From IMG/VR virus record IMGVR_UViG_2703718872_000034: 37,292 nt of DNA, one strand, 5' to 3'. Within the stretch, counting starts at the first letter, position 1, and each line of letters opens with the position of its first letter. Positions 16,307-35,173 of this stretch are shown piece by piece. The position numbers and the translations under genes were made by a program. The notes under the pieces are model-generated. The model had not been told where the DNA came from, did no database searches, and saw nothing but the letters and a program-made list of their open reading frames with translations. This DNA comes from a virus (taxonomy: Duplodnaviria; Heunggongvirae; Uroviricota; Caudoviricetes).

Positions 16307-16427
16307 CGGTCAGTGGCGGGGGTCGAACCCGCATACATGATCCACCCGGAGGCAGGCACCGACTTTACCAGTTAAGCGTACACTGACCGCCTGTTTATTT
16401 TATATTCATCCTTTATGCGGAGGCAAT

Positions 16428-19200: not shown

Positions 19201-19590
19201 ATGAATGAACATCACACTGTGGCAGCAACAGATGATTCAGGTCTTCAGGTCAGTGGTGACAATTCTGTCACGGTGCTGGCAGAAGTGCGTTGCAGTCGTT
19301 CGGCGTTTCGTCGTGCGGGGTTCCTGTTCACGCGTGGACGTCAGCAGGTTGAGGTCACCCCGGAGCAGCTTGCCCGACTGGAGGCGGAGCCATGCCTCAC
19401 TGTGCGAATACTACAGACGCCTGCTGATGATGCGGGGAGCGTGGCGGGTGTGGTTCATGCAGTGGCCGGTACAGATTTAGCCGAAGCCGAAGCCGAAGCC
19501 GAAGCCGAAGCCGAAGCCGAAGCCGGACAGGATGCTCCCCGGAAAAAGACCGGTAACAAAGCGAAACAGGCGAAAAAGGCCCGCGCATGA
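19201..19590 (+). CDS. head-associated protein with (Glu-Ala)7 linker and Lys-rich tail (Mu gp35 position)
   Basis: 129 aa; GGAGGG RBS; contains in-frame GCCGAA tandem repeat. Confidence 0.5.
   Translation: MNEHHTVAATDDSGLQVSGDNSVTVLAEVRCSRSAFRRAGFLFTRGRQQVEVTPEQLARLEAEPCLTVRILQTPADDAGSVAGVVHAVAGTDLAEAEAEAEAEAEAEAGQDAPRKKTGNKAKQAKKARA
19480..19521 (+). repeat. tandem hexanucleotide repeat (GCCGAA)x7, in-frame, encoding (AE)7
   Basis: Seven perfect consecutive GCCGAA units read directly, followed by degenerate GCCGGA. Confidence 0.9.
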
Positions 19591-20569: not shown

Positions 20570-20800
20570 ATGACAACCATTTTTATCAAACCCGCGCCGG
20601 GATGCCTGATTCGTGATCCCGACACAATGCGCCCGCTGGCACAGGAGGGGGAGGAAAAGCCCTTCACGCCGTTCTGGTGTCGGCGTCTTGATGACGGCGA
20701 TGTGATTGAGATTGAAAAAACGGTCGGTTCTGCGGATGCACCGGCAGAAAAACCCGCAGCGACTGTAAAACCCGTGGCATCTGACAAGGAGGCTTCCTGA
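20570..20800 (+). CDS. small protein (Mu gp38-like)
   Basis: 76 aa; position directly before sheath gene. Confidence 0.45.
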   Translation: MTTIFIKPAPGCLIRDPDTMRPLAQEGEEKPFTPFWCRRLDDGDVIEIEKTVGSADAPAEKPAATVKPVASDKEAS

Positions 20801-22215
20801 TGATCAACTTTGATTCCATCAGTAATACAAACCGTATTCCGCTTTTTCAGGCGGAATTCAATAACTCCATGGCGGTAACCGGTACTCCGCCGCAGCGTCA
20901 GTGTGTCCTGTTGTTCGGACAGAGAAGTTCTTCTGTTGGTGGTGTTATTAACGTTCCGTACCGTATCACAAGGGCAGAACAGGCCGCCGAGCGCTGGGGA
21001 AGAGGCTCCATGATTGCCCGCATGGTGGCTGAATTTATTGCCATCAATCCTGATACAGAACTGTATGCCATCGCACAGGATAACGGGACAGGCAAAAACG
21101 ACGCCGGAACGATTACGATGAGCGGAACATCCGTTGTTGACGGTGTGCTCAGTATTTATATCGCCGGTAAGGGGTATCCGGTGGCTGTCAGCAAAGGAGA
21201 AAAAGCGGCGGATGTTGCCGGAAAACTGGCTCTGCTCATAAATCAGGATCTGGATGCGCCTGTTGCTGCTGTGGCAAACGCCCCGTCAGACAATAGTGAT
21301 GCCACAAAAAAAGTCATCGCACTGTCAGCAAAGTTCGTCAGCGAGTGTGACCATGATGTCCGGCTGAATTATTACCCGGAGGATGTTACTCCGCTGGGGA
21401 TTACCGTGATCATCTCCGGTCGCTCAGCCGTCCCCAAAAACCCGGATATCACCCGCAGCGTGGCTGCGATGGGGGATCGGCAGTACAACTATATCGTCAT
21501 GCCGTATAAAGATGCAGCCAATCTGAAGATTCTGGCGAACGAACTGCTGACGCGCTGGGGACCGGAAAAAATGAATGATGGTATGGTCTGGATGGCGCAT
21601 ACCGGTACGTTTGGTAATGTGTCCAGCTTCGGGGAGTCCAGAAATGATTTTCTGTTTACCTGTACCGCGATCCCAAAAGCACCGGAGCCGGATTATATCT
21701 GGGCAGCCACCCTGTGCGCCACCTGTGCGCCGTCTTTATCAGTCGATCCGGCACGACCTCTGCAATCTCTGGCATTGCCTTCCCGACTGGCTCCGGCATT
21801 GTCTGCCCGCCTTACAAATGAGGAACGAAACAGTCTGTTGTATACGGGGATTTCCACGGTAACGGTGGGAGCCGGTGATGTGATGCAGATTGAGCGTCAG
21901 GTGACCATGTATCGCCAGAACGCATACGGCGAAAGCGATCCCAGCTATCTGGATGTGGAAACCATCTACACCCTGTCATATCTGCGTTACTCCCTGCGGG
22001 TATTCATTACACAGCGTTTCCCCCGCCATAAACTGGCAGATGACGGAACGCCAGTTGGTCCCGGACAGTTCATTGTGACACCGCAGATCATGAAGCTCCA
22101 GTTGATTGCTCTGGGTGAAGAGTGGATTGAACAGGGGCTGGTCGAGAATATGGAGGTTATCGATAAAGGTTCCTTTGTCCGGGATATCCGCGCCATTCTG
22201 GTCCCTGCGCAGGTA
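20800..22215 (+). pseudogene. tail sheath gene, N-terminal fragment (about 472 codons), disrupted by inversion
   Basis: ORF 20800..22485 is chimeric: protein-like up to about 22215, then runs antisense through the fibre gene; the in-frame continuation is found on the minus strand at 30977..30850 ending just before the tube gene RBS. Confidence 0.7.
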
Positions 22216-22683
22216 ACGGTTATCACCTTCGCTCTTGCTGTAAACATCCAGATTATTACGGGCGGTTCCCTTATTCTCCAGGTCGGCGAGATTCTGATCC
22301 TTCGCCAGGGCATTAACGTCACCGGGACCAAGACTGTTTTTTGTGGCAAGCGTCCCCAGACCAAGATAACCACGGGCCAGACGCTGGGCCTCCGCACCGG
22401 CATCAGCAATTTCTTTCAGGTTATTTTTCCGGGAAAAAGCATTCGCAGCGATAATGGCTTTAATAGACAGCGTAAGCTGGTTTAACTGCGCCTTATCCGG
22501 CTGAATACTGGCTTCAGCCAGAATATTCAGCAGTTCGGCCTGGAGAATATTCAGCCAGTCCTGACCAATCCAGCTGATACCTTTTTGTCCGTCACCTTCG
22601 GTAAACCAGGTGGTGGTATTACTCTGCGCCGGTGCCAGCGCAGGCATATTCGCCACGCCGGAATTATTATCAACATGAAACAT
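22211..22683 (-). pseudogene. tail fibre gene constant (N-terminal) part Sc, separated from its variable part by inversion
   Basis: Minus ORF with GAGGAGGAGAA RBS and TAATG overlap with upstream gene; fibre-like NLGLG/GDNRY-type sequence up to codon 157, then read-through into antisense sheath sequence; rejoins in frame with Sv at the gix site. Confidence 0.65.
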
Positions 22684-23243
22684 TAAATATTCTCCTCCTC
22701 GTGACTGTTTGCATACACGTAAATAAACGTCTGCCATGCAGGCTTATAACGGTTCAGAATACATTCCAGCGCACCGCCCTCATAAATACGCAGCGGCGTG
22801 AGAATATCATCCAGCACATTCATATTCCGGTAGCCGGTTTCACTGTTTATCGTGACAATACTGACCCACTGTGAATCCGGTGATGGCTGAATATCTATTT
22901 CATAACCAAACTCTGCCGCAAACCGGATATAAAATTCACGGTTCAGCGAAGGCTTCATCCGGTATTTATTCCCGGCATAACGCTGTCGTTCTGTGATGGT
23001 GGCTCCGGCCATATCACACTCGGGAAGGCCGAGATAACGCTCCCAGTCTTCCAGAAGCAGACGGGAACTGTCAGGGAAACGTTCTGCCAGCAGTTGTTTT
23101 CCCGTCCATGCAACACGTTCGGTGGAATGGCTGAGGCCAAGGCATAACGCAGCCAGTACGGATGACGGCCGCTTGTCCCAGGCCAGTCCGTCAGGCAGCA
23201 ACTGCAACAGGGCGCGCTGATGCGGAGTGAGGGTTACAGCCAT
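22683..23243 (-). CDS. baseplate/tail protein (Mu gp48-like, P2 gpI-like)
   Basis: 186 aa; position upstream of fibre gene; overlapping stop/start. Confidence 0.7.
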   Translation of the reverse strand: MAVTLTPHQRALLQLLPDGLAWDKRPSSVLAALCLGLSHSTERVAWTGKQLLAERFPDSSRLLLEDWERYLGLPECDMAGATITERQRYAGNKYRMKPSLNREFYIRFAAEFGYEIDIQPSPDSQWVSIVTINSETGYRNMNVLDDILTPLRIYEGGALECILNRYKPAWQTFIYVYANSHEEENI

Positions 23244-24319
23244 GTGATTTCCCCCACTGTCAGCAGCTCACTGTCCCCCGCCTGAACCGACGTCAGCGGG
23301 CTGCGCACTTCAAAATCCTCCAGATTTTTCACCCCCGCCACGGCACGCCAGAAAGACGACGCCAGAACCAGACCGCCGGGCCGGGATTCGTTGTATAACA
23401 GGTCAGTCAGTGCCTGTTTTACGGCCGCCTGATTCTCCGGTGTTTTCGGGATGATCCTGATACTGAAGGGCACTGGCTTATTGGTCAGTTTAAACACGGT
23501 CACCGTCGGCCCCAGCGGCTGACCGACAGGCTGACCGGTCGCCGGATCATCATGACTGCGGATATAATCCGCCACACGTTTCACATCACCTTCACCGGGA
23601 AAAATGTCCGGGTTGTTGTCCTGAACGAACGTCACCCCCACGCTGCCCGCCTGCGGCCATTCCGGGCGGCACCATGCCCGCGTCACCCCCGGCACTTCAC
23701 GCGCCCAGCGTTCAAAATCGTACTGCGTGCCGCCGGACGGCGGATTCTGCACCCGGAAAACCAGGCGGGAAAGCAGCTCCGGCACCGTTTCCACATCCGC
23801 ACCACCGGTGATCCCTGTTCCGGTCACCGTGGCCGTCTGGTTGATCCCCGCCTGCGGAGTGACAAACGTCAGTTTCGTCCCTGCCGGGGCATTTCCCGCA
23901 CGACCGGCACTTTCGGCCTCCACACTGACATTCAGCGTACCGGCTTTACCGGTCAGTGAGGAGGTGATGCGGTAAACCACGCCGTCACTGCGCTGGAGAA
24001 GCACACCTTCCGTGATCCCCGCATCCGTGGTCAGCATCAGCTGAACCGGCCCGTCACCCCGTGAGGCGGGTTTACGCATGACACCCCAGAAAGCGCAGTG
24101 CTTCAGCAACTCGGCTTCATCGGCTTCTGTCGGGATGATCTGACGTGCAATCCAGGCCAGATGTTCATGCTCCTGTGCAGACAATCCTGCCTGAGCATAC
24201 GCAATGGCATTCAGGGTGGTTTCATTCACGCCCGGCTGCGAACCGGGAAGACGCTGGCTGATATCCTGCTGTGTCTGCGTGATTAATTGTGCCAGCGGTA
24301 AAGGCTGATAAGGCATCAC
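23234..24319 (-). CDS. baseplate J-like protein (Mu gp47-like)
   Basis: 361 aa; position and size. Confidence 0.75.
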   Translation of the reverse strand: MMPYQPLPLAQLITQTQQDISQRLPGSQPGVNETTLNAIAYAQAGLSAQEHEHLAWIARQIIPTEADEAELLKHCAFWGVMRKPASRGDGPVQLMLTTDAGITEGVLLQRSDGVVYRITSSLTGKAGTLNVSVEAESAGRAGNAPAGTKLTFVTPQAGINQTATVTGTGITGGADVETVPELLSRLVFRVQNPPSGGTQYDFERWAREVPGVTRAWCRPEWPQAGSVGVTFVQDNNPDIFPGEGDVKRVADYIRSHDDPATGQPVGQPLGPTVTVFKLTNKPVPFSIRIIPKTPENQAAVKQALTDLLYNESRPGGLVLASSFWRAVAGVKNLEDFEVRSPLTSVQAGDSELLTVGEITWL

Positions 24320-24753
24320 TCCCCCTTAAGATCAGCATAAAAAATCATGGGTCTTACCGAACCATCAGGCAGGGTTATGCGCACCGAAAGCGCCAGCCGC
24401 GCGTGTCCCACACGTTCTGCATGACAGACCACGGATGACGCCACGCCATCCTGACTGAGCCAGCCCAGCGCCTCATCCGCGTAGGCACGGGCACGGCTTA
24501 TCACGGAGACCAGCGTTTTTTCCCGGCTGAGAAGCCACAGACGGGAGCCAATGGGGCGCGGGCGAAAACTGTCTCCCCACCATCCCCGGCGGTCACGTGT
24601 GCCATCAGGGATTTCATCCGATGCCAGTGCCCGGCGGTCAGTAAACAGTGAAATCAGAACCGCTGTCAGCAGGCTGTCATCTGTCAGCAGGTCTGCACCG
24701 TTCAGTTGCAGCGAACCGCATCCCTGATCCCACACAATTGCAATATCAGCCAT
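24316..24753 (-). CDS. baseplate wedge protein (Mu gp46-like)
   Basis: Start placed at internal ATG 24753 with AGGAG RBS, 145 aa; longer ORF to 24876 lacks RBS. Confidence 0.65.
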   Translation of the reverse strand: MADIAIVWDQGCGSLQLNGADLLTDDSLLTAVLISLFTDRRALASDEIPDGTRDRRGWWGDSFRPRPIGSRLWLLSREKTLVSVISRARAYADEALGWLSQDGVASSVVCHAERVGHARLALSVRITLPDGSVRPMIFYADLKGE

Positions 24754-25360
24754 TCTCCGGCGCTCCTGTCTTACTGCCTTCACCGTTATCATGATGTACA
24801 TGGCCGGAATAGGTGATTCCCGCAATAACAGCCTCGGACATCGTGAACGTACCCTGTGATTTTCCTGTGCCGTCAATGGTCAGATTACCTTTGATATGCA
24901 GGTTTTTATCCACCGTGACATTGCCTGTAAAGGTGGCTTCCGGTGTATCCACCTGAACACCTTCATCGGCGTAAATTTCCAGCGTCTTACAGGTCACAAT
25001 GATCCGACCGTTCTTTGTCAGACGTATACGGTGCCCCTCATGGTGATACACGCCGGTATCTCCGGCAGTGAGTCCGGTCGGGCGACTGCGGCGGTCTTCC
25101 ACCACAAGCACCACGGTCTGATCACGCTGCCCGCCCAGACAGGCAAAAAAGGTTTCCGCACCCGGCAGGGGAACACTGATCTGCCCGTACTGCTGGGGAC
25201 GCTCCACATCATCAAAGGTTTCGCCGTCCATGCCGGTGAGCTGCACATTCTGCATTTTCAGTTCGTCATGTGTGCCGGTCAGAACGCCCCGGCCAAACAG
25301 CAGGCGAATGCCGCGCGTTACCGGGGCAATCAGGCGGCTGAACACTTCATCATTCATCAA
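24746..25360 (-). CDS. baseplate spike/assembly protein (Mu gp45-like, gpV-like)
   Basis: 204 aa; position between P-like and wedge genes. Confidence 0.7.
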   Translation of the reverse strand: MMNDEVFSRLIAPVTRGIRLLFGRGVLTGTHDELKMQNVQLTGMDGETFDDVERPQQYGQISVPLPGAETFFACLGGQRDQTVVLVVEDRRSRPTGLTAGDTGVYHHEGHRIRLTKNGRIIVTCKTLEIYADEGVQVDTPEATFTGNVTVDKNLHIKGNLTIDGTGKSQGTFTMSEAVIAGITYSGHVHHDNGEGSKTGAPENG

Positions 25361-26474
25361 AGCTAATCCCCTGTTTTTTCATCTGCTGGCGAATAAAGGC
25401 ATCAACATCATCACCGGAACCACCACGGCCCTTACTGTCCGGCTCTGCCGGAACGATAAAGCCGTCACGCGGTGCCAGTACCAGCCGGGTGACTTCCCCG
25501 TTCTGCTCATCCAGTAAAAACTCCACCTGGCAGACCAGCAGTTCAGTCTGTTCGATACCGAAACGCAGGGCTGAAACACCGGTCAGCAGATTGACATCCC
25601 ATAACCGGCCATCATCCCGGAACCAGCCACGCACGGTGGCGGAAAACCGTTCTGAACGGGCAACCGCACGGCGCATCTCCCGCAGGGCGCGCTGCCGTGC
25701 ACCGGTGGAGTCTGTCTGCTGATCGGCGAGGATGATTTTCGGCCGGTAGCGACCGATCTGCTCATCACTGATGATGCCCACTGGGGCCGCCAGCCGGGCG
25801 GCAGATTCGCTGTCTCCCCGTTTGCCACCACCGCGTCCATGCCCCCGGACACGGTATTCGCTGTATCGTCCTCGCCAGTCCGTGTTGTAATCGGCATCAA
25901 GCAGGTTTTCCCCCAGCACCAGTCTGTCCGTCTGCTGATTTCCTGCCTGGGTGAACACCAGATCACCGTCAGCATTACTGGTCACCAGCACCCCACGATG
26001 CCGGGCCGCACGGGTCAGCGCATCCGCCACGGTTTCTGAGTTTTCCAGGGTAAAAGAGCTGAAGGGGCGTGCAGCCGTGTCGTCGTTAACCTGCCAGCGC
26101 ACGGCTATTCCGAAGGGCGCACATAAATCTGCGGCAATCTGTGCCAGCGTCCGGTTTCGCCACTGGCTGCCGGGATGGATGGCGGCACAGTCCACCAGGT
26201 CGCCGGTTTTATCCCGACCGTTAATGCTGATCTGATGACGGGTTGCACTGATCCGCTGACTGACCTGATCCAGCCAGCCACTGATGACAGTCTGCCCGTT
26301 AATTCTGAGCGTCAGGGACTGACCGGTCCGCAGGGCTGAGGGGATGCGCTCACCGGGCAGCATCAGCCCCAGTTCAAACGACCCGGCCAGATGCTCCAGA
26401 GAACGACGGACGCTTACCGTCAGCCAGCCGGAAAAAATACTGCCGCCAATATACAGCTCAATCCTGCTGCTCAC
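25350..26474 (-). CDS. tail protein P-like (Mu gp44, P2 gpD-like)
   Basis: 374 aa; position after N-like gene. Confidence 0.75.
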   Translation of the reverse strand: MSSRIELYIGGSIFSGWLTVSVRRSLEHLAGSFELGLMLPGERIPSALRTGQSLTLRINGQTVISGWLDQVSQRISATRHQISINGRDKTGDLVDCAAIHPGSQWRNRTLAQIAADLCAPFGIAVRWQVNDDTAARPFSSFTLENSETVADALTRAARHRGVLVTSNADGDLVFTQAGNQQTDRLVLGENLLDADYNTDWRGRYSEYRVRGHGRGGGKRGDSESAARLAAPVGIISDEQIGRYRPKIILADQQTDSTGARQRALREMRRAVARSERFSATVRGWFRDDGRLWDVNLLTGVSALRFGIEQTELLVCQVEFLLDEQNGEVTRLVLAPRDGFIVPAEPDSKGRGGSGDDVDAFIRQQMKKQGISFDE

Positions 26475-27816
26475 TAATCACCTCCACACTGCGACCACCA
26501 GGAACAAAAACCGGATCAGGGATGTTGTTCCTGCGGACAAAATACTGCCAGCGACGGCTGTTGCCGGTGGCACGGTACAGCGTGACCAGTGCCGGTTCGG
26601 TGGTTCTCACCATGACCAGAGAAGCACCGGGAAGATGCACGCTACGCGTTGTTAAATCCTCTGTCAGCGCAAGCCTGGCATCACGTAATGCAAGGGCGGT
26701 TCCGGTATGGCCCTGTGCGGACAAATCCAGCACCTGTTGTTCCAGGGCATCACTCAAATCCCGGTTGATCCGCTGCACATCGGCAGAACTTTCCAGCCAG
26801 GCCAGTCCGCCCTCCCGGTCTGTATCCTGAACGTGCGTCGCACTCTGCCGGACGACCTGATCCAGCAGTTTTCCTACCGTCTGCGCCTGTGACACCAGGG
26901 TTGCGCTCTGCATGACTGTCCGCAGCAGACGGATATTTTTCTGTGCCGCAGGCGTCAGACCAATCAGGATCTGCGGATCATCCTGCCCGCTGAGGGTATA
27001 ACGCAGGGAAGAAAGTGTGCGGTACAGTTGCGGCATTGCCTGCTCTGTCATGCTGTCACGATTTGTGGTCAGGCTGCCGGACGGCGTTGCGGCCTTCCCG
27101 GTCAGTGACAGGGAAGGATCGCCGGGCAGTCCCGTCAGCACCGCAAACATTCCGGCCAGAGATTCAGCCATGCGACGGGGCGAATTAATCAGGGCGGCAG
27201 CATTCCCTTTCAGGGCAGTGAAACTGGCCGTAAAGGCACTGATATCCTGCACAATCCCCATTCCCGAAACGGCATTCTCCAGCGCATCAATTTTATCGCT
27301 GATGGTGTCGGTCATGGCCTGCACATCATGCAGGCCGTCTGAAATCACTGTCCAGCCGTCTGAAAGCGTGTTAAACAACTGATTCATTGCTGAACCGCTT
27401 TTCTGCTCCAGAACGGCAGCCGTGTCTTCAGCCACCGCCGGTGCGGTATCGTCACTGGCGGGGATCACGTTGATCGTGAACTCAACCGTTCCCTGTTCGC
27501 TGGCGTTATAACGGCTTTCAAAGCTGTTTATCAGCACGTTTAAGGTGCCATAATCCGGGTGCATCAGTTCACCGGCACCGGGTGCCCGCAGCGCATCCCG
27601 CAGGCGGCTTCGCTGCGTCTGAAGATCATCGCCGATCACAAGAGCCGTGAATGTAAACTCCGGGAGTTTTGGCCCCAAATCATCCGCGCCGCCGCTTTCC
27701 CGCAGAGGATATTCACGGCGCACAATGTTACGTCCGCCCCGTTCCCGTTGTTCCTGATAAATCAGAAACGGCACACCACGAAAGGAGCCACGCCCCGGCG
27801 TGTCAGTAGAGGCCAT
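26458..27816 (-). CDS. DNA circularisation protein N-like (Mu gp43)
   Basis: 452 aa; position directly after tape measure. Confidence 0.75.
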   Translation of the reverse strand: MASTDTPGRGSFRGVPFLIYQEQRERGGRNIVRREYPLRESGGADDLGPKLPEFTFTALVIGDDLQTQRSRLRDALRAPGAGELMHPDYGTLNVLINSFESRYNASEQGTVEFTINVIPASDDTAPAVAEDTAAVLEQKSGSAMNQLFNTLSDGWTVISDGLHDVQAMTDTISDKIDALENAVSGMGIVQDISAFTASFTALKGNAAALINSPRRMAESLAGMFAVLTGLPGDPSLSLTGKAATPSGSLTTNRDSMTEQAMPQLYRTLSSLRYTLSGQDDPQILIGLTPAAQKNIRLLRTVMQSATLVSQAQTVGKLLDQVVRQSATHVQDTDREGGLAWLESSADVQRINRDLSDALEQQVLDLSAQGHTGTALALRDARLALTEDLTTRSVHLPGASLVMVRTTEPALVTLYRATGNSRRWQYFVRRNNIPDPVFVPGGRSVEVISEQQD

Positions 27817-29857
27817 AGTTCCCTCCGTTCCAGACGTTCACATCAAGGCCATGCTGTGCGGTATCATCCACATCAATACTGCGTGCCCGCCAGCCTTCAG
27901 GGGCCACAAGCTCCACCCGTGCGGCGGTTTTCGCGGTGGCCTGTCCGCCATTTTCATCACTGCCCCGTAATTTCTGCCAGGCTTCGGTCAGCCATCCCCC
28001 CAGATAATCACCGAGATAACTGCCCACCGTGGAGCCAATGGCAACCCCGACCGGACCGGCGGCAGCCCCCAGCGCGCCACCGGCGATACTTCCGGCAAGG
28101 GAACCCATGGCACCGGCTTTATCAGCTGCACTGGCGCTGTTGTCCAGCAGTACAGGAGCCGCCATGGCACCGGCCCACAGGGCACCACCGCCCAGCCGAC
28201 CGGCACCACGGAACAACCCGGCAAAACGCCCCAGCCCCATGCGGTTTCCGGCAGCCGAAAGCAGACCACCTGCACGGCTCATCATACGACCGAAGAAGCC
28301 CTGTTTACCGGCGCTCTCTGCCAGTTGTTCGCCTGCGGTCACAACGGTCGGGACACCCCGCCCACGTCCGGGGCCGCGTTTTTTACGGCCGCGCACGGTT
28401 CTGCCGTCACCGCTGACCACCACATCCCCGCCACCTGATGCCAGACCACCCGCAGGCCAGTTGGTGACCAGTACGGGCTGAACGGCAGCAGGATTTACCC
28501 CGGTAAGAAAGTTCATAAAACGCTGGCCGCGTCCTGGCTGCGTGCCCGGAACGGTGGTCTGCGGTTTACGAAAAGGCGAGGTCAGCACAGCGGCCGTGGA
28601 TAACCCGTACCCCAACAATGCCGCCCCCGGTCGCAGTGCCCCAAGACCTATGGCGCGGACAGCCTTCAGCGCACGGGTGGCGAGATACATATACAGGAGA
28701 TATTTCGCGGCGGTCTGTGCGCCCTGAGCAATGCGATCCAGCGCATCGCCATAACCGGCGTCACGCAATGCCTGAAGCGTTTCCCTGACTTTCTGAATGG
28801 CCCGGTAAAAACCCGTCGCTGCGTCTCTGGCATACTCAAACCCCTGATTCAGGGCTGAGGCTGTTTGTGTGGCCAGCTTGTCCTGTAAGCCGCTTTTCTG
28901 TGCCGCATCGGCATAATCCAGGAAGCCTTTCAGGCTCTTTTTCAGGCTGTCAAATGGCCCTTTTGCCATTACTTCACGGGCAAATCCGTCCCAGACGTCG
29001 CCCATCATGGATGTCATCCCTGTCCATGAGTTCATGGCGTTTTTCTGGGCACCTTTTGCCTGTTCGGCCATCACCTGAAATAACAGCCGAATGCTGTCCG
29101 ATCCCAGTTTTCCTTTCTCGCCTTTCTCACGGATGATCTTCTGGTTTACACCCAGTTTATCGGCCAGCAACTGGTAAACGTTTATCCCGTATCCGGTCAG
29201 AATATTGGCGTCTGCGGCCTGGATACTCTGGCGGGCAAACATCTGTTTGAGTTGCAGGGACGCACCCTGTGCATCTGACAGTGACCAGCCGTGATAGCCG
29301 CCCTGATCCTGAAGCATGGTAATAAAGCGGCGGGCTTCCCTGTCACTCATACCGAACCCGCGACTGGAGGCGTATTCCTGCATAACCCCCGCCAGCCCCC
29401 AGGTGGTTTCCTTTGCGTTCTGTACCGCCCAGGCTTTCACTGCTTCCGTTTTTGCCGTATCGCCATGATTAATGGCATTGAGACGCAGAATATAGTTCTC
29501 CATCTCTGCGGCCGGGCGGATAAAGGCTTTATTAAAACCGTAGACCGCAGCCCCTCCTGCCAGCATCCCGTAAAGGTTGCTGAGACGTCCCAGTGTGCCG
29601 GTAATACTGCCCTGAAGACGGTCAAAATCCGACGTTACCGTGCGGATACTGCCACGGACACCGGCAAGCGTACGCTGCATACGGGAGCCGACAAGCTCTG
29701 TCTCCTGACCGGCACGGCGGGCTGCATTTCCAATACCACCCAGCCCCGTCCTGCCGACGCGGGAGAACGCTCCCAGCTCCTGTGACCACTGGCGGGATTT
29801 GGCGGAAACATTGCCGAGTAAATCGACAATCAGGGAGGCTTTCAGGTTTTTTGCCAT
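27803..29857 (-). CDS. tail tape measure protein
   Basis: 684 aa, Ala/Gly-rich, helical N-terminal half, located between chaperone and N-like genes. Confidence 0.85.
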   Translation of the reverse strand: MAKNLKASLIVDLLGNVSAKSRQWSQELGAFSRVGRTGLGGIGNAARRAGQETELVGSRMQRTLAGVRGSIRTVTSDFDRLQGSITGTLGRLSNLYGMLAGGAAVYGFNKAFIRPAAEMENYILRLNAINHGDTAKTEAVKAWAVQNAKETTWGLAGVMQEYASSRGFGMSDREARRFITMLQDQGGYHGWSLSDAQGASLQLKQMFARQSIQAADANILTGYGINVYQLLADKLGVNQKIIREKGEKGKLGSDSIRLLFQVMAEQAKGAQKNAMNSWTGMTSMMGDVWDGFAREVMAKGPFDSLKKSLKGFLDYADAAQKSGLQDKLATQTASALNQGFEYARDAATGFYRAIQKVRETLQALRDAGYGDALDRIAQGAQTAAKYLLYMYLATRALKAVRAIGLGALRPGAALLGYGLSTAAVLTSPFRKPQTTVPGTQPGRGQRFMNFLTGVNPAAVQPVLVTNWPAGGLASGGGDVVVSGDGRTVRGRKKRGPGRGRGVPTVVTAGEQLAESAGKQGFFGRMMSRAGGLLSAAGNRMGLGRFAGLFRGAGRLGGGALWAGAMAAPVLLDNSASAADKAGAMGSLAGSIAGGALGAAAGPVGVAIGSTVGSYLGDYLGGWLTEAWQKLRGSDENGGQATAKTAARVELVAPEGWRARSIDVDDTAQHGLDVNVWNGGNYGLY

Positions 29858-29984
29858 GGATTACTGCTTCGTTCTGAGAATTTTTTCCGTTTGTTGGCAG
29901 TGCCGGTAAAGTTGCGATAAGGGGAGGTTAAGTGCCCATTCCGGGCCGCTTCTGGTCACCATCCCCAGCACTATTGCCGCTTCT

Positions 29985-30461
29985 TCAATCTGCGCCCGAC
30001 ACTGCGCCTGCTCGCCCCCGATCAGCCGCCAGCTTTCCGGCAAGCGCTGTATCCAGCAGGCTGACCGCTGCCATCAGACGGGAGAGATCGCGCTCGCTTA
30101 ACTGTCCAATCTGGCGTTGTGACAACGGCCCCTGAATGTCACCGACAGCGGCAATCTGGCGACGCAGCAGCGCAATACCGCGCAGGGCCGGTGATGCCAC
30201 CAGAACCGGGCCATTTCGGGTTTCCATAAGACGTTCAGCATCGGTTTCCGCATCAATGCTGTCTTTCGCCGTCAGTTCACGGAAGGTGACGCGGTATTCA
30301 CGGGATTCCCCGAACGGCAGACCGTCGAGCAGATCCACATAGCCTTTCGCCAGTTGTTCAGCCAGACCGGCGGTGCGTGGATCGCCGTCCTCAAGTGCAT
30401 CACGGATAGCCTCAATAACGGCTTCGTCAGAAACCGCTGTTTTTTTCTTACGTGTGGTCAT
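29985..30461 (-). CDS. tail assembly chaperone (Mu gp41-like)
   Basis: 158 aa acidic protein between tube and tape measure; overlapping alternative-frame ORF 29861..30043 at its 3' end. Confidence 0.6.
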   Translation of the reverse strand: MTTRKKKTAVSDEAVIEAIRDALEDGDPRTAGLAEQLAKGYVDLLDGLPFGESREYRVTFRELTAKDSIDAETDAERLMETRNGPVLVASPALRGIALLRRQIAAVGDIQGPLSQRQIGQLSERDLSRLMAAVSLLDTALAGKLAADRGRAGAVSGAD

Positions 30462-30475
30462 TTTATTTTTCCTGA

Positions 30476-30841
30476 TTACTGGACACGGGTACTGGTGGCA
30501 CTGGCGAACTTCGCGGAGATCTCCCCGCCACCGTCAAGTGAGGCCGGTTCACTGCTCCAGGCCTTCGTCATCATGTGGACTTCGCCGGTGTCCGCCACAA
30601 ACTCGATAGTGACCGCAGTCCAGGTGTTGATTTCATCAGCGGCCGGTGAACCGTCTCCGCCTGCCGGAAATTTGCAGTCCAGCGTCGCTTCACGTGGTTT
30701 CTCGCGATAGCCATAGACTTTTGCGCCTTTCACCACTTCACGCTCAAAGCCGGACGGGGAGAACGTGGCCCCCTCAAGGGTGGAGTATTCCTGACCGTTC
30801 ACACGGATAGTGGCCGTGCCCTGATACTGTTTTCCGCTCAT
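30476..30841 (-). CDS. tail tube protein (Mu gp40-like)
   Basis: 121 aa; RBS GAGGTAAG before ATG; follows sheath C-terminal fragment. Confidence 0.75.
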   Translation of the reverse strand: MSGKQYQGTATIRVNGQEYSTLEGATFSPSGFEREVVKGAKVYGYREKPREATLDCKFPAGGDGSPAADEINTWTAVTIEFVADTGEVHMMTKAWSSEPASLDGGGEISAKFASATSTRVQ

Positions 30842-30849
30842 GTCTTACC

Positions 30850-30977
30850 TCACAAAATGAAACGGATCTGCGCTGCCATGAAGCGGAACTGGTTAACCAG
30901 ATCCGGTGTACACATCACATCCAGACGGTTACGATCAGTTGTGTTACGCTCCACAAGCAGATTGTTTTTAAATACCT
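30850..30977 (-). pseudogene. tail sheath gene, C-terminal fragment (about 42 codons plus stop)
   Basis: Minus-strand frame ...VFKNNLLVERNTTDRNRLDVMCTPDLVNQFRFMAAQIRFIL-stop ending 9 nt before tube start; in frame with sheath N-terminal fragment across shared AGGTA. Confidence 0.6.
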
Positions 30978-30990
30978 CGGTTTACGGGAA
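30965..30990. other. gix-like recombination site, hybrid (degenerate left half, consensus-like right half GGTTTACGGGAA, centre TC)
   Basis: Right half nearly identical to the reverse complement of the left half of the site next to gin; resembles the Mu gix consensus core AAACC-NN-GGTTT. Confidence 0.6.
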
Positions 30991-31359
30991 ACGGTAAACA
31001 GGGCTGCAAATGCCCTGCCATCGAATGGTACAGCCGTAGCGGCAAACAAGCTGTCTGCGGCACGTAAAATTAACGGTGTTGCGTTCGATGGCACAAAGGA
31101 CATCACTATTACATCCGGGATGACCCAGGCTACAGCAGACGGCAGATATGTTCGTAATGTGCAACTTGGTGCTCAGAGCCGCCACTCTCCTGCGGGTAAT
31201 GAAGTCACCTGGGATTATAAAACGCCAGCAGGTTGTATGCTTTCCGGTATTCATGTACAGGATACCGGCTCCCGGTCTGCGGATAATATCGGTGGGGTCT
31301 ATTATCGCCCGGTTCAGATTTATATTAATAATGCCTGGAGAACGGTGAGTTCAGTGTAA
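30978..31359 (+). CDS. tail fibre variable C-terminal part Sv (no own start; fuses to Sc)
   Basis: Frame open from the gix site: GLRETVNRAANALPSNGTAVAANKLSAARKINGVAFDG...GVYYRPVQIYINNAWRTV; typical fibre repeat and C-terminus. Confidence 0.7.
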
Positions 31360-31366
31360 ACCACAG

Positions 31367-31387
31367 AAAAGGGTGCTGAATGCACCC
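31367..31387 (-). terminator. hairpin (GGGTGC / GCACCC) with A/T-rich flanks between convergent Sv and tfa
   Basis: 6-bp perfect inverted repeat; a U-tract follows the stem on the minus-strand transcript. Confidence 0.45.
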
Positions 31388-31393
31388 TCTGAA

Positions 31394-31966
31394 TTATTCC
31401 GGTTTTTCCGGCCAGGGAATCGCCTGGTAATGCCCCTCACTGGCAATATCATTAAAGTGCATTTCTTTAAGCTGTCGGATATACGCCATCCAGCGCGTCA
31501 GCTTTAATTTATTTTCATCGCTAATCATGTCCAGTTTTAATTCTGTTTTCCAGTCATCCACGGTTCCGTTGGCCTCCTGGAGCAGCGATGAGCGGCGATT
31601 TTCAGCAACCGTCTTCCAGTTTACCGGCACCTTTGATATCAGGCCATCAGAAAACTGCCAGTTACCGTCAATATTCACACCTTCCGGCAGTTCGTCCACT
31701 TCAACAACAGTAAAACCTGCCGGATATAAAGCAGAGACATCTTCAGCAACAGAGCAGATAATGCCCGTTACAGGCGAAATACAGAGTTTGTATTTCTTTG
31801 TGAAAAGCGGGATAGATTCATAAAAATCCCTTCCGTCCTCACTCTGGAAATACTGAACATCCTCACCATAGGGTTTGTCTTTCGGGTAATATCGTTTGAC
31901 ATTAATCAGTTGCATAAACATCACCATGTAAATCAATGATAAAAACAGGAATAATACTATCGCCAT
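31394..31966 (-). CDS. tail fibre assembly protein (Mu U / P2 G family)
   Basis: C-terminal ...HYQAIPWPEKPE motif typical of tail fibre assembly proteins; start at 31966 or internal ATG 31915. Confidence 0.7.
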   Translation of the reverse strand: MAIVLFLFLSLIYMVMFMQLINVKRYYPKDKPYGEDVQYFQSEDGRDFYESIPLFTKKYKLCISPVTGIICSVAEDVSALYPAGFTVVEVDELPEGVNIDGNWQFSDGLISKVPVNWKTVAENRRSSLLQEANGTVDDWKTELKLDMISDENKLKLTRWMAYIRQLKEMHFNDIASEGHYQAIPWPEKPE

Positions 31967-32036
31967 ATACAGGCAATGCTTGTCTGAAATAACGCATATT
32001 TCAGATGCTGGCTGCTGTGTGCTATGCCCCCGTTAA

Positions 32037-32404
32037 TTAAATACTTGCAGCGGATACCCAATGCCCATTAATACAATATTGTATCTGTCTGTAATAAACA
32101 CGCTCATCACCACCACGCATTTCCCAGTCTCCGTTAGTCTTAAAACCGGTAATCACATTTCCTGATGACAGGGAGTAATTATATTCCAGTCCGCCGCTTA
32201 ATGCCTGCGCTCCCAGTCTTACCCCTGTAACATAACGCTGATTGGCCGTTGATTCCGGCATTCCTGACGTAATGTTTATATCCTGCGTGCCGTCAAAGGC
32301 GACACCATTGATTCTGCGGGCATTTGCCAGCCTGCTTGCTGCAACAGCCGTACCGTTTGATGGCAGGGCATTCGCGGCCCTGTTTACAGTATCCCGTAAA
32401 CCGA
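32037..32404 (-). CDS. alternative tail fibre variable C-terminal part Sv' (no own start)
   Basis: Minus-strand frame open from gix site: GLRDTVNRAANALPSNGTAVAASRLANARRINGVAFDG...RVYYRQIQYCINGHWV; N-terminal 20 aa nearly identical to Sv. Confidence 0.7.
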
Positions 32405-32416
32405 GGTTTCAGGGAT
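32391..32416. other. gix-like recombination site (ATCCCGTAAACC-GA-GGTTTCAGGGAT), near-palindromic
   Basis: 12-2-12 inverted repeat read directly; resembles Mu gix/hix family; 55 bp upstream of gin. Confidence 0.7.
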
Positions 32417-32470: not shown

Positions 32471-33031
32471 ATGCTGATTGGCTATATACGCGTATCAACA
32501 AATGACCAGAACACAGGTTTACAAAGAAATGCGCTGGAATGTGCAGGATGTGAGCAGATTTTTGAAGATAAAATGAGCGGAAAAACAACGCAGCGGCCGG
32601 GACTGAAGCGGGCACTGAAGAAACTAAAACCCGGTGACACGCTGATGGTATGGAAACTGGACAGGCTGGGGCGCAGTATGCGCCACCTTGTTGCGCTGAC
32701 AGATGAATTACAGCAACAGGGGATAAATTTTCGTAGTCTTACTGACAACATTGATACGTCAACCCCTATGGGGCGCTTCTTTTTTCACATAATGGGTGCG
32801 CTGGCAGAAATGGAGCGTGAACTGATTGTCGAACGGACACGGGCTGGTCTTGCAGCTGCCCGTGAAAGGGGACGAACCGGCGGCAGACCCCGTCGTCTCA
32901 CGCAGGAACAATACGAGCAGGTCGGGCGTTTACTGGCCGGGGGTGTCAGCCGAAGACAGGTGGCACTTATTTTTGATATCGGCCTTTCAACCCTTTATCG
33001 TTATTATCCTGCGAGCGTTTCGGAAAAATAA
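32471..33031 (+). CDS. gin: serine DNA invertase Gin (Gin/Hin/Pin/Cin family)
   Basis: 186 aa; N-terminus MLIGYIRVSTNDQNTGLQ with catalytic Ser in YIRVST, C-terminal HTH; near identity by recall to Mu Gin; RBS AAGGAAGG. Confidence 0.92.
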   Translation: MLIGYIRVSTNDQNTGLQRNALECAGCEQIFEDKMSGKTTQRPGLKRALKKLKPGDTLMVWKLDRLGRSMRHLVALTDELQQQGINFRSLTDNIDTSTPMGRFFFHIMGALAEMERELIVERTRAGLAAARERGRTGGRPRRLTQEQYEQVGRLLAGGVSRRQVALIFDIGLSTLYRYYPASVSEK

Positions 33032-33130: not shown

Positions 33131-35173
33131 ATGACGTCCAAATGGGTTCAACTATCATCAATGCCCGGAAACTTTACCGTTAAAGTTTCCGGTGGTACAG
33201 CGGCATTTCTTGAGGCTCCCTTTCCTCCGGTCGAAACAAAAGGAGGAATGACATTTGCTGACTGTCTCATCAGTTTTAATACACGGGATTGCCTGTGGGT
33301 AAGGCCAGTATCCGGTAATCCGAGTGTGGAAATTACCGGAGCAGGTATCGGTGCGGTCATTCCGTTAAGTGCTGATGTTGCCGGTACTGCTGAACCGTCA
33401 GACTGGGATAATGCTGAAACACATACCCGTCCGTCAGGAAATGAAACTGCTTCCAGCTCCCCTTCCTGGTATTACGTGGTGGTTCTTGCTGGTCAGTCAA
33501 ACGGTATGGCTTACGGTGAAGGTCTGCCACTGCCGGAGACATATGATCGCCCCGAACCGCGTATTATGCAGTTAGCCCGTCGCAGTACAGTCACGCCGGG
33601 AGGTAAAGCCTGTCAGTATAACGACATCATTCTGGCCGACCACTGTCTGCATGATGTGCAGGATATGAGTGGAAAAAATCACCCGAAAGCGGATGTGGCT
33701 AAAGGGCAATATGGCACCGTGGGTCAGGGGCTTCACATTGCCAAAAAACTGCTGCCGTTTATTCCGGCAGATGCGGGGATTCTGCTGGTTCCCTGCTGCC
33801 GTGGTGGTTCTGCATTCACGGCGGGTGCTGACGGCACGTACAGTGACAGCGCGGGTGCTTCAGAGAACTCAGCCCGCTGGGGTGTGGATAAGCCGTTGTA
33901 TAAGGATTTAATCAGCCGGACAAAAGCGGCGCTGGCGAAGAACCCGAAAAACCGCCTGCTTGCCGTGGTGTGGATGCAGGGTGAGTTTGATATTGATGCG
34001 AAGCCGACGGAGCATTCCGCGCTGTTTCTGGCGATGGTGGAAAAATTCCGCACAGACCTGGCTGAAAAAGCAGAGCAGTGTATTGGTGGTCGAACTGAAA
34101 CTGTGCCGTGGATTTGTGGCGATACCACGTATTTCTGGAAAAAGAAAAATGAACCGGCATATCAGGCAATCTATGGCGGCTACAAAAATAAAACAGATAA
34201 AAACATTCATTTCGTCCCATTAATGACAGATGAAAATGGCGCGAATGTACCCACCAACAATCCGGCAGAGGACCCGGATATTGAATCCATTGGTTATTAC
34301 GGCTCAACGTGGCGTAACAATGCTGCCACCTGGACATCTGCGGACCGGGCCAGTCATTTCAGTGCCTGGGCGCGCCGTGGGATTGTTTCCGACCGTCTGG
34401 CCACGGCTGTTCTGACTCACGCAGGGCGAACCACAGTAAAAGCCGATGTTCCATCTTCTGAAACTGATGCGCCAACGCCGTCACCTTCAGAAGCTGAAAC
34501 AGTAACCACAACAACACTGCTGTCTTACCGTGCCAGTGAGTCTGAAGGGAAGCTGACCGAACAGGGCTGGAGTGCAGGTGGAGGTAAAGCGGAAATTGTT
34601 GCCGATGAAGGTGCAACTGGTGGAACCGCGATGAAGCTGAGCAAGGAGACGGGTAAAGGATCATGGCATCTGGAGCATGATGCCGGTACTGGCGCTGAAC
34701 TGCTGAAAAATGGCGGCTTAATCAGTTGCCGCTTTAAGGCATCCAGTGAACTGGTGGCAAATCAGTATGTCATTGCACTTTACTGGCCGGTTTCCTCTCT
34801 GCCGCAGGGTGTCACCCTGACAGGGGAAGCAGGGAATAATCTGCTGGCAGCGTTCTACATCCAGACAGACGCAAAAGACCTGAATGTGATGTACCACAAT
34901 GCAAAAGTGGCGACAAATAACCTGAAGCTGGGAACCTTTGGCGCATTTGATAATGAGTGGCATACGCTGGCCTTCCGCTTTGCCGGGAATAACAGCCTTC
35001 AGGTGACGCCGGTTATTGATGGTCAGGACAGTACACCGTTCACGCTGACGCAGTCACCGGTCAGTGCATTTGCGGCGGATAAACTGCATGTGACAGACAT
35101 TACCAAAAATGCGACTTACCCGGTGCTGATTGACAGCATTGTGGTGGAAGTGAAAAAAGCGGTAACAGAATAA
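33131..35173 (+). CDS. SGNH/SASA-type carbohydrate esterase, prophage NanS-like sialate O-acetylesterase candidate
   Basis: 680 aa; VVLAGQSNGMAYGEG motif (GQSN catalytic block of the SASA family); N-terminal non-catalytic region, central esterase region, C-terminal Thr/Ser-rich linker and about 220-aa possible carbohydrate-binding domain. Confidence 0.65.
   Translation: MTSKWVQLSSMPGNFTVKVSGGTAAFLEAPFPPVETKGGMTFADCLISFNTRDCLWVRPVSGNPSVEITGAGIGAVIPLSADVAGTAEPSDWDNAETHTRPSGNETASSSPSWYYVVVLAGQSNGMAYGEGLPLPETYDRPEPRIMQLARRSTVTPGGKACQYNDIILADHCLHDVQDMSGKNHPKADVAKGQYGTVGQGLHIAKKLLPFIPADAGILLVPCCRGGSAFTAGADGTYSDSAGASENSARWGVDKPLYKDLISRTKAALAKNPKNRLLAVVWMQGEFDIDAKPTEHSALFLAMVEKFRTDLAEKAEQCIGGRTETVPWICGDTTYFWKKKNEPAYQAIYGGYKNKTDKNIHFVPLMTDENGANVPTNNPAEDPDIESIGYYGSTWRNNAATWTSADRASHFSAWARRGIVSDRLATAVLTHAGRTTVKADVPSSETDAPTPSPSEAETVTTTTLLSYRASESEGKLTEQGWSAGGGKAEIVADEGATGGTAMKLSKETGKGSWHLEHDAGTGAELLKNGGLISCRFKASSELVANQYVIALYWPVSSLPQGVTLTGEAGNNLLAAFYIQTDAKDLNVMYHNAKVATNNLKLGTFGAFDNEWHTLAFRFAGNNSLQVTPVIDGQDSTPFTLTQSPVSAFAADKLHVTDITKNATYPVLIDSIVVEVKKAVTE

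What the first reader, a model, noticed from the sequence alone, without database searches (positions are those of the whole stretch)
22205..30990. About 8.8-kb inversion of the whole tail module, with breakpoints inside the sheath gene and exactly at a gix site
Head genes and gin/com/mom are on the + strand, but tube, chaperone, tape measure, N, P, baseplate genes and the fibre constant region are all on the - strand. The + strand sheath ORF (20800..) is protein-like to about 22215, then continues as antisense of the fibre gene. Its missing C-terminus is encoded on the - strand at 30977..30850, ending 9 nt before the tube gene RBS. The fibre constant region (22683..22211, -) rejoins in frame with the variable region Sv that starts at the gix-like site at 30978. 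Both junctions share TACCT (22211..22215 and 30973..30977) and differ only at the second nucleotide of the presumed crossover centre. This pattern suggests an aberrant Gin-type recombination between the fibre gix site and a weak secondary site in the sheath gene; microhomology-mediated rearrangement is the alternative. The result is a split sheath gene and a fibre gene lacking its tip, so this configuration should be tail-defective unless it can flip back.
Basis: partly seen in the sequence, partly recalled or inferred. Interest (0 to 1): 0.85.

Follow-up and report, generated by a model that had tools for sequence, protein, structure and literature searches.

The report
Invertase mis-flip of prophage tail module
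In this Mu-like E. coli prophage the 8.8-kb block of tail genes has been flipped by the phage's own type of tail-fibre DNA invertase, which paired its normal site with a weak look-alike site in the sheath gene; this splits two tail genes, and the arrangement is inherited in over a hundred public assemblies.

Summary
Against near-identical un-inverted prophages, window 22158..30973 (8,816 bp) is inverted. The junctions lie at 22153-22157 (GAGGT) and 30974-30978 (ACCTC).

The right junction falls on the 2-bp crossover core (TC) of the fibre-gene gix site. The left junction joins the other half of that gix site to sheath-gene sequence, at an identical core. Undoing the inversion in silico restores a 493-aa sheath and a 303-aa fibre. 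Both are identical to proteins annotated in sister strains.

The best explanation is recombination by a Gin/Cin-type serine invertase between gixL and a weak quasi-gix site in the sheath gene. An intact Gin homologue lies at 32471-33031.

It is not an assembly artefact. The chimeric 561-aa sheath ORF occurs exactly on 107 contigs, including E. coli 99.0741 and several SRA assemblies. None of 5,426 complete E. coli genomes has either junction.

Within the inverted lineage the small G segment occurs in both orientations, always joined at TC. The hybrid site therefore appears still to be used.

Quasi-site recombination by these invertases has been known since the 1980s. This is a tidy natural example and, by inference, a tail-defective prophage.

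The parts
20800..22157 (+). 5' part of the tail sheath gene (codons 1-452 plus 2 nt). In the window it reads on into antisense fibre sequence, giving a 561-aa chimeric ORF that ends at 22485.
   Evidence: Pfam Phage_sheath_1 and a truncated Phage_sheath_1C. All relatives' alignments break at 22153-22157.
22141..22166 (.). Left junction, a hybrid crossover site: GTCGAGAATATG GA GGTTATCGATAA. It is the sheath-derived half, the core, then the genuine Sc-side gix half (TTATCGATAACC on the - strand).
   Evidence: Found identically in L005, L006 and L008 and lies inside the unbroken, SNP-free alignment of L007 and L020.
22158..30973 (-). Inverted 8,816-bp tail module. It holds the fibre constant part, Gp48, baseplate J, GP46, Gp45 spike, P, N (DNA circularization), tape measure, Gp41 chaperone, tube and the sheath 3' end.
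   Evidence: Reverse-oriented block against L002, L003 and L004. Gene and Pfam lists.
22158..22683 (-). Fibre constant region Sc (175 codons). In the window it is fused to about 60 codons of antisense sheath sequence, giving an ORF that ends at 21976.
   Evidence: The gene start is mapped from the RefSeq annotation of L003.
30476..30841 (-). Tail tube gene, now cut off from the upstream head/sheath operon.
   Evidence: Pfam Tail_tube. Annotation in L003.
30850..30973 (-). Displaced 3' end of the sheath gene (last 40 codons plus stop).
   Evidence: The reconstruction gives a 493-aa sheath identical to the one annotated in strain 2015C-3121. It is colinear with Mu L to the C-terminus.
30965..30990 (.). 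Right junction, a hybrid crossover site: TTTTTAAATACC TC GGTTTACGGGAA. It is the sheath-derived quasi half, the core, then the genuine G-side gix half.
   Evidence: In L005, L006, L008 and L013 the inner half is swapped to GGTTTACGGGAT, which shows G inversion at this site.
30974..32408 (.). G-like invertible segment (1.43 kb) with imperfect 81-bp inverted repeats at 30974-31054 and 32328-32408. It carries two alternative fibre C-termini (30973-31359 + and 32408-32037 -) and one Caudo_TAP chaperone gene (31966-31394 -).
   Evidence: Both orientations occur in un-inverted and in inverted prophages.
32391..32416 (.). gixR: ATCCCGTAAACC GA GGTTTCAGGGAT.
   Evidence: Compare Mu gix, TTATCCAAAACCTCGGTTTACAGGAA.
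32471..33031 (+). Gin-type serine DNA invertase gene, intact, 186 aa, with Ser9 present.
   Evidence: E = 2e-91 to the Mu Gin structure 3UJ3. Pfam Resolvase plus HTH_7. The gixR and 5' gin stretch is 82% identical to Mu's, where the enhancer lies by my recollection.

Best explanation
The window is an Sp18/Mu-like transposable prophage. A Din-family serine invertase recombined the normal left crossover site gixL with a weak quasi-gix site inside the sheath gene. The enzyme was most simply the prophage's own Gin homologue, though a related invertase acting in trans cannot be excluded.

The two partner sites:
- gixL lies at the constant/variable boundary of the tail-fibre gene: TTATCGATAACC-TC-GGTTTACGGGAA.
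- The quasi-gix site lies inside the sheath gene: TTTTTAAATACC-TC-CATATTCTCGAC.

The two sites lay in inverted orientation and carry the same 2-bp core. Staggered cleavage at the core, subunit rotation and religation therefore inverted the 8.8 kb between them. This left two hybrid sites.

Shown:
- the breakpoints, the site sequences and the core identity;
- exact restoration of both genes on un-inversion;
- an intact invertase gene;
- inheritance of the arrangement in many assemblies;
- both G-segment orientations within the inverted lineage.

Inferred:
- The sheath lacks its last 41 residues and the fibre lacks its receptor-binding tip.
- The tube, chaperone, tape-measure and N genes are cut off from the head-operon late promoter.
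- The prophage should therefore make no functional tails and survive only by vertical descent.
- Flipping back through the two hybrid sites is mechanistically possible but unproven.
For: - Three-block alignment with the middle block reversed, against L002, L003 and L004. Only 5 bp are shared at each junction.
- The right junction falls on the core of a 26-bp site. That site scores as by far the best gix match in the phage and matches the Mu gix read from AF083977.
- Half-site bookkeeping across 10 loci shows every join exactly at TC. All four states occur: parental or inverted, each with either G orientation.
- In silico un-inversion gives a sheath and a fibre identical to the annotated proteins of strains 2015C-3121 and 2012EL-2448.
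- The Gin homologue is intact, E = 2e-91 to the Mu Gin structure, with Resolvase and HTH_7 domains.
- The quasi-site ranks 6th of 4,350 GA/TC-core 26-mers in the phage, that is 4th among non-genuine sites.
- The chimeric ORF is found exactly on 107 contigs in 121 index blocks. These include EIH46399.1 of E. coli 99.0741, GCA_012556445.1 and Logan SRA assemblies whose contigs cross both junctions.
- An inverted copy (L013) sits in hofC, like the un-inverted sister copies.
- Precedent: Cin recombination at quasi sites depends on the central dinucleotide (Iida & Hiestand-Nauer 1987, cited in PMC4134206).
Against: - The quasi-site is weak. One half scores modestly (8-9 of 12 matches to real half-sites) and the other has no resemblance. 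Three or more other sites in the phage score as well or better.
- The 5-bp identity would also fit microhomology-mediated joining.
- No experiment or read-level data show that an invertase did it.
- Nothing shows which invertase acted. STEC genomes carry several prophage invertases.
- Fis-enhancer function is only inferred from 82% identity of the gixR and 5' gin stretch to Mu's.
Confidence: 0.85

Rival explanations
1. Invertase-independent illegitimate recombination: microhomology-mediated break repair or template switching between the 5-bp inverted repeat GAGGT/ACCTC.
For: Only 5 bp of identity lie at the junctions. The sheath site is a poor gix match. GAGGT and ACCTC occur 26 and 12 times in the phage, so such microhomology is easy to find.
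Against: - One breakpoint coincides with the 2-bp core of a genuine gix site. For a random breakpoint in 37 kb that is roughly a 3 in 10,000 coincidence (my estimate).
- The event is perfectly reciprocal and conservative, with no base lost or gained.
- The partner shares the core dinucleotide and the ACC just outside it, as invertase chemistry requires.
Confidence: 0.07
2. Assembly artefact or mixed-population mis-join. The true prophage would be colinear and the inversion was created by the assembler.
For: Invertible phage regions are known to confuse assemblers (PMC4134206). None of 5,426 complete genomes shows the junctions.
Against: - The exact chimeric ORF is on 107 contigs from NCBI and Logan assemblies made by different projects and methods.
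- Contigs of 20-540 kb cross both junctions.
- There is no long repeat at the junctions that could mislead an assembler, only 5 bp.
- Inverted copies carry private SNPs and different VNTR alleles.
Confidence: 0.02
3. A reversible, invertase-driven ON/OFF switch of the whole tail module. The inversion would recur and revert at low frequency through the hybrid sites, rather than being a one-off dead end.
For: - Each hybrid site keeps one strong half-site and the same core.
- The hybrid right site still supports G inversion.
- An inverted copy (L013) and an un-inverted copy (L009) have an identical 12.7-kb right flank and sit at identical coordinates in contigs of 257,212 and 257,219 bp.
- No shared SNP separates inverted from un-inverted copies. 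All differences are private.
Against: - Short-read contigs run through both junctions without breaking, so the isolates are not visibly mixed.
- The quasi-site sequence is not conserved in Mu, and no selective rationale is evident.
- The same data fit a single recent event in a star-like clonal expansion.
Confidence: 0.06

Closest known systems
Quasi-site (cixQ) recombination by the P1 Cin invertase (Iida & Hiestand-Nauer 1986/1987; cited in PMC4134206)
   Same: A Din-family invertase pairs a genuine crossover site with a poorly matching secondary site. Selection depends on an identical central dinucleotide. The exchange is conservative and occurs exactly at the core. It produces hybrid sites and an inversion of unintended DNA.
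   Different: Those events were, as I recall, recovered experimentally on P1 and plasmid substrates. Here the product is a natural prophage rearrangement of 8.8 kb. It splits two structural genes and is inherited in a pathogenic E. coli lineage. Dependence on the invertase is inferred, not shown.
Mu G-segment / Gin-gix-Fis inversion system
   Same: The Gin homologue matches the Mu Gin structure at E = 2e-91. The 26-bp gix sites closely resemble Mu's. gixL sits at the constant/variable boundary of the fibre gene. The invertible segment carries alternative fibre C-termini, and gin lies immediately downstream.
   Different: The G segment is only 1.43 kb, against 3 kb in Mu, with one chaperone gene instead of two and 81-bp imperfect repeats. 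The event of interest uses a non-canonical partner 8.8 kb away and inactivates genes instead of switching host range.
Sp18-type Mu-like prophages of STEC (E. coli O157 Sakai Sp18; CC119 Mu-like phages, PMC10132054)
   Same: Same phage family and gene order. The closest deposited phage-collection sequence is the Mu-like insert in LC727881 (98.4% identity).
   Different: The Mu-like insert I aligned (LC727881/L002) is colinear, and the passages of PMC10132054 I read mention no tail-module inversion.
Prophage tail-fibre invertible regions seen in E. coli long-read assemblies (EC958 Phi1/Phi2/Phi4, PMC4134206)
   Same: 26-bp crossover sites of the same consensus, for example TTATCGAATACCTCGGTTTACGAGAA, and invertase-driven heterogeneity in prophages.
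   Different: Those are canonical 2-3 kb fibre switches between two genuine sites. This one is a mis-targeted inversion across the whole tail module.

Membership tests
Din-family (Gin/Cin/Pin/Hin) serine DNA invertase system | Small serine recombinase with an N-terminal resolvase catalytic domain (catalytic Ser9) and a C-terminal HTH | tested here: met
   ORF 32471-33031: Pfam Resolvase 1.4e-51 and HTH_7 1.7e-14. E = 2.3e-91 over residues 1-182 to Mu Gin 3UJ3, with S at position 9.
Din-family (Gin/Cin/Pin/Hin) serine DNA invertase system | Two 26-bp crossover sites (12-bp imperfect inverted halves around a 2-bp core) in inverted orientation, flanking a segment with alternative fibre C-termini | tested here: met
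   Parental gixL is TTATCGATAACC-TC-GGTTTACGGGAA. gixR lies at 32391-32416. They are the top two PWM scores in the phage and match the Mu gix read from AF083977. The alternative fibres are 303 and 298 aa.
Din-family (Gin/Cin/Pin/Hin) serine DNA invertase system | Both orientations of the invertible segment occur in nature, with exchange at the core | tested here: met
   L003 against L004, L002 and L009, and the window against L005, L006, L008 and L013. The half-site swaps are all joined at TC.
Din-family (Gin/Cin/Pin/Hin) serine DNA invertase system | Fis-bound recombinational enhancer in cis (in Mu, inside the 5' end of gin) | tested here: inconclusive
   The gixR and 5' gin stretch is 82% identical to Mu's. 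No Fis-site model or functional test was available.
Quasi-/pseudo-site recombination by a DNA invertase | One partner is a genuine site and the other a weak look-alike with the same central dinucleotide in the orientation needed for inversion | tested here: met
   The sheath site is TTTTTAAATACC-TC-CATATTCTCGAC. Its half scores are 5.5 and -11 bits, against 12-19 for the genuine halves. It ranks 6th of 4,350 GA/TC-core sites. Its core TC is inverted relative to gixL.
Quasi-/pseudo-site recombination by a DNA invertase | Conservative reciprocal exchange exactly at the core, yielding two hybrid sites | tested here: met
   The junctions are a-TC-f and e-TC-b. No base is gained or lost. Un-inversion restores both proteins exactly. 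Resolution is limited to the shared ACCTC.
Quasi-/pseudo-site recombination by a DNA invertase | The event depends on the invertase (and Fis) | not testable with these tools
   This needs genetics or an in vitro assay.
Mu-like (Sp18-type) transposable prophage | MuA/MuB transposition genes, Mor, Gam, Mu-type portal/F/protease/capsid, Mu tail and baseplate genes, gin-com-mom right end, variable insertion sites | tested here: met
   Pfam lists (Mu-transpos_C, Phage-MuB_C, Mor, Phage_Mu_Gam, Portal_Mu, Phage_Mu_F, Mu-like_gpT, Mom, Zn_ribbon_Com). The sheath is 51% identical to Mu L. Copies occur in hofC and at another locus, L014.
Microhomology-mediated illegitimate inversion | Breakpoints at short inverted microhomology with no relation to a recombinase site | tested here: not met
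   A 5-bp microhomology exists, but one breakpoint lies on the gix core and the partner shares the core.

The most novel reading that the evidence does not exclude
The 8.8-kb tail-module inversion may not be a dead-end accident. It may be a low-frequency, reversible flip that recurs and reverts through the hybrid sites in a clonal E. coli lineage. The fibre invertase would then act as an ON/OFF switch for virion production. As a corollary, a crossover site with only one consensus half-site would be a competent in vivo substrate.
Probability: 0.08. Interest if true: 0.7.

Novelty: new member of a known kind. Interest (0 to 1): 0.4.

Why it matters
- It is a clean natural record of off-target action by a phage DNA invertase. 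A host-range switch enzyme has disabled its own phage's tail.
- It gives a defined in vivo quasi-site, with both hybrid products and evidence that one hybrid site still recombines. That is useful for understanding the site selectivity of Gin-type recombinases, which are also used as genome-engineering scaffolds.
- It explains a mis-annotated 561-aa "sheath protein" present in public databases.
- It provides a simple structural marker for a sub-lineage of pathogenic E. coli.
- It adds an invertase-driven route to the known ways prophages decay. IS insertion, deletion and nonsense mutation are all seen in sister copies of this same prophage.

Tried and rejected
- A search of the 5.8-billion-protein database with the 108-aa antisense tail of the chimeric ORF, meant to find other fusions at gixL, returned nothing. 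The tool searches only one representative per 90% cluster, and the chimera shares cluster 1 with the intact 493-aa sheath, which probably explains this.
Contig counts came from the listing of cluster members instead.
- Exact junction searches in IMG/VR found 0 inverted and 1 parental junction, which is uninformative.
- A look-up with the conserved 554-aa protein encoded at 11738-13402 hit 11,595 blocks and yielded only one more inverted locus, L020.
- SNP and VNTR comparison of 7 inverted and 9 un-inverted copies cannot separate a single origin from recurrence. All differences are private.
- Literature searches for the strain names, for serotype context, gave nothing useful. Full-text searches for quasi-cix or pseudo-gix found only citations and engineering papers.
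- ARAGORN finds no tRNA in the window, although RefSeq annotates a "tRNA-OTHER" in the sister prophage.

Full report
**What the window is.** The ORF layout and the Pfam labels on public copies show an Sp18/Mu-like transposable prophage.
- It starts at the MuA gene at position 1. MuB, Gam, Mor, the lysis genes, the portal, F, protease and capsid genes follow.
- The sheath gene begins at 20800.
- At the right end lie a Gin-type invertase gene (32471-33031), a block of cargo genes, and com and mom, which end at 37292.
- The reconstructed sheath protein is 51% identical to Mu L and colinear with it to the last residue.

**Checking the observation.** BLAST of the window gives three colinear blocks with the middle one reversed in every comparison.
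- The comparisons were with a Mu-like insert in LC727881 (L002, 98.4%) and the same prophage in E. coli 2015C-3121 (L003) and 2012EL-2448 (L004), both 99.9-100% identical.
- The blocks are ..22157, 22153..30978 (reversed) and 30974...
- Each pair of adjacent blocks overlaps by 5 bp: GAGGT at 22153-22157 and ACCTC at 30974-30978.
- The inversion is therefore real and its unique part is 22158..30973 (8,816 bp).
The left one (22211-22215) is 58 nt off.
- Pfam agrees: the sheath C-terminal domain match in the 561-aa ORF stops at residue 453, at profile position 66 of 104.

**Un-inverting in silico.** Replacing 22158..30973 by its reverse complement gives two intact proteins.
- The sheath is 493 aa and identical to the protein annotated in 2015C-3121.
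- The fibre is 303 aa and identical to the protein annotated in 2012EL-2448.
- Flipping the small G segment as well gives the alternative 298-aa fibre of 2015C-3121.

In the window as it stands, two genes are damaged.
- The sheath loses its last 41 residues and gains 109 residues of antisense read-through.
- The fibre keeps 175 constant-region residues and gains about 60 residues of junk.

**Anatomy of the junctions.**
- The right junction (30965-30990) reads TTTTTAAATACC-TC-GGTTTACGGGAA.
- The left junction (22141-22166), read on the minus strand, is TTATCGATAACC-TC-CATATTCTCGAC.
- gixR (32391-32416) is ATCCCTGAAACC-TC-GGTTTACGGGAT on the minus strand.
- The parental gixL is therefore TTATCGATAACC-TC-GGTTTACGGGAA. 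This is a close match to the Mu gix read from AF083977, TTATCCAAAACC-TC-GGTTTACAGGAA, and to the prophage crossover sites tabulated for E. coli EC958 (PMC4134206).
- The partner in the sheath gene was TTTTTAAATACC-TC-CATATTCTCGAC. It has the same TC core in the orientation that gives inversion, one half with 8-9 of 12 matches to real half-sites, and one half with no resemblance.

A position-weight model was built from 14 genuine half-sites.
- The two real gix sites score 35 and 29 bits.
- The sheath site scores -5.5 bits.
- It still ranks 6th of 4,350 26-mers with a GA/TC core in the phage. With a narrower model it ranks 42nd.
- It is thus a weak quasi-site and not the only candidate.
- The equivalent position in Mu's L gene has no such sequence.

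**Mechanism.** The ORF at 32471-33031 is an intact Gin homologue.
- It matches the Mu Gin crystal structure at E = 2e-91 and has Ser9 in place.
- It carries the Resolvase and HTH_7 domains.
- The stretch spanning gixR and the first 250 bp of gin is 82% identical to Mu's. By my recollection Mu's Fis-dependent enhancer lies there. I could not test enhancer function.

By established knowledge of serine invertases, they cut both sites with a 2-nt stagger at the core, and religation needs identical cores.

Four features point to a Din-family invertase acting on gixL and a quasi-site:
- a perfectly conservative, reciprocal exchange;
- localisation to a 5-bp identity that contains the core;
- a genuine gix site as one partner;
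- an identical core in the other partner.

This kind of event was described for P1 Cin, where the central dinucleotide governs which quasi sites are used (Iida & Hiestand-Nauer 1987, cited in PMC4134206). By my estimate, a random breakpoint would land on a gix core about 3 times in 10,000. For that reason I rate plain microhomology-mediated joining as unlikely. These invertases are known to complement one another, so a related invertase from another prophage could have acted in trans.

**Real or artefact?** The arrangement is real.
- Neither junction occurs in any of 5,426 complete RefSeq E. coli genomes. All 229 and 47 genomes with partial matches break at the same points.
- Neither occurs in IMG/VR.
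- The exact 561-aa chimeric ORF is indexed in 121 blocks of public assemblies and seen on 107 contigs. It is deposited as EIH46399.1, "phage tail sheath protein [Escherichia coli 99.0741]".
- The identical intact allele is on at least 1,000 contigs, which is the counting cap.
- The fetched examples are L005 from GCA_012556445.1, L006-L008 from Logan SRA assemblies, L013 from GCA_037453515.1 and L020 from GCA_040021935.2.
- L005, L006 and L008 cross both junctions; L007 and L020 cross the left one and L013 the right one. All match the window exactly across the junctions they cover. They differ from it only by private SNPs and by copy number of a hexanucleotide repeat.
- A 5-bp repeat cannot mislead an assembler. 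The arrangement is therefore real and inherited.

**State of the lineage.**
- L013 (inverted) lies in hofC, next to gspE, ppdD and nadC. The un-inverted copies in 2015C-3121, 2012EL-2448 and L009 lie in the same place.
- Mu-like phages insert almost at random. A shared insertion site therefore indicates that the inversion arose in an established lysogen.
- L009 and L013 have identical sequence over 12.7 kb to the right of gin. They sit at identical coordinates in contigs of 257,219 and 257,212 bp.
- Inverted and un-inverted forms thus coexist among very close relatives.
- The SNPs are all private, so I cannot tell one origin from several, nor exclude reversion.

**The G segment still flips.** Bookkeeping of half-sites over ten loci finds all four combinations:
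- parental with G in state 1 (L002, L004, L009, L014);
- parental with G in state 2 (L003);
- inverted with G in state 1 (the window);
- inverted with G in state 2 (L005, L006, L008, L013).

Every join is at TC. In the inverted lineage the swap occurs within the 16 bp that contain the core of the hybrid right junction. The most economical reading is that the hybrid site, which keeps only one good half-site, is still used together with gixR. The alternative is two independent large inversions, starting from parents in the two G states.

**Consequences (inferred).**
- By established knowledge of contractile sheaths, their terminal strands interlock in the polymer. A sheath lacking 41 C-terminal residues should therefore not assemble.
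- The fibre lacks its receptor-binding end.
- In Mu the late promoter for P through U lies inside N (annotation). The genes from the head operon through N depend on an upstream promoter.
- After the inversion, tube, chaperone, tape measure and N are separated from that upstream promoter.
- The two late transcription units now converge.
- The prophage should be tail-defective and transmitted only vertically.

Sister copies of the same hofC prophage carry other independent lesions: an IS1-associated deletion in L010, a tape-measure deletion in L015 and a nonsense mutation in the Gp27 gene of L003 and L004. The inversion is thus one of several decay routes in this clone.

**Verdict.** The phenomenon, invertase recombination at a quasi-site, is a known kind. 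This is a well-documented natural instance with population data, so it is a new member of a known kind.

My interest score is moderate (0.4). A recombination specialist would find it neat rather than surprising. It would rise if read-level or phylogenetic data showed that the tail module flips back and forth.

Noticed in passing
window 19479-19525 (within the head-tail connector gene 19201-19590): A perfect hexanucleotide tandem repeat, (AGCCGA) x 7.8. Its copy number differs by 1-3 units among otherwise near-identical prophage copies, both inverted and un-inverted. This changes the protein length (123-127 aa in the near-identical copies).
   Followed up: partly
window 30974-32408: The G-like invertible segment is only 1.43 kb and holds a single Caudo_TAP chaperone gene (31966-31394, -) between the two alternative fibre ends. 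Only the 298-aa fibre form has a co-oriented chaperone downstream. The 303-aa form has the chaperone gene on the opposite strand.
   Followed up: partly
window 33131-35173, plus small ORFs up to about 36550: Cargo genes are inserted between gin and com/mom, where Mu has nothing. They are a 680-aa protein with SASA (sialate O-acetylesterase-like) and DUF6645 domains, followed by DUF1378 and DUF826 genes.
   Followed up: no
window 11319 (gene 11157-11738, Phage_Mu_Gp27): The window and the inverted copies covering this position (L005, L007, L020) have C here and an intact 193-aa ORF. The un-inverted sister prophages in 2015C-3121 and 2012EL-2448 have T, and RefSeq flags the gene as a pseudogene with an internal stop.
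   Followed up: partly
L010 (CP075632.1) and L015 (CP075665.1), same hofC prophage: Other independent lesions of the same prophage. L010 has an IS1-associated deletion joining window ~8035 to ~27750. L015 has a 1.3-kb deletion inside the tape-measure gene (window 28072-29393) and an insertion after the chaperone gene.
   Followed up: partly
window ~16308-16387 (- strand); L003 34015-34094: RefSeq annotates a "tRNA-OTHER" here in strain 2015C-3121, between the F-like head morphogenesis gene and the virion morphogenesis gene. ARAGORN finds no tRNA anywhere in the window.
   Followed up: partly
L014 (GCA_020145145.1, JACINM010000010.1): A near-identical un-inverted copy of this prophage sits at a different chromosomal locus, next to gabP, gabT, gabD and csiD, rather than in hofC. 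This indicates that the colinear form is, or recently was, mobile.
   Followed up: no
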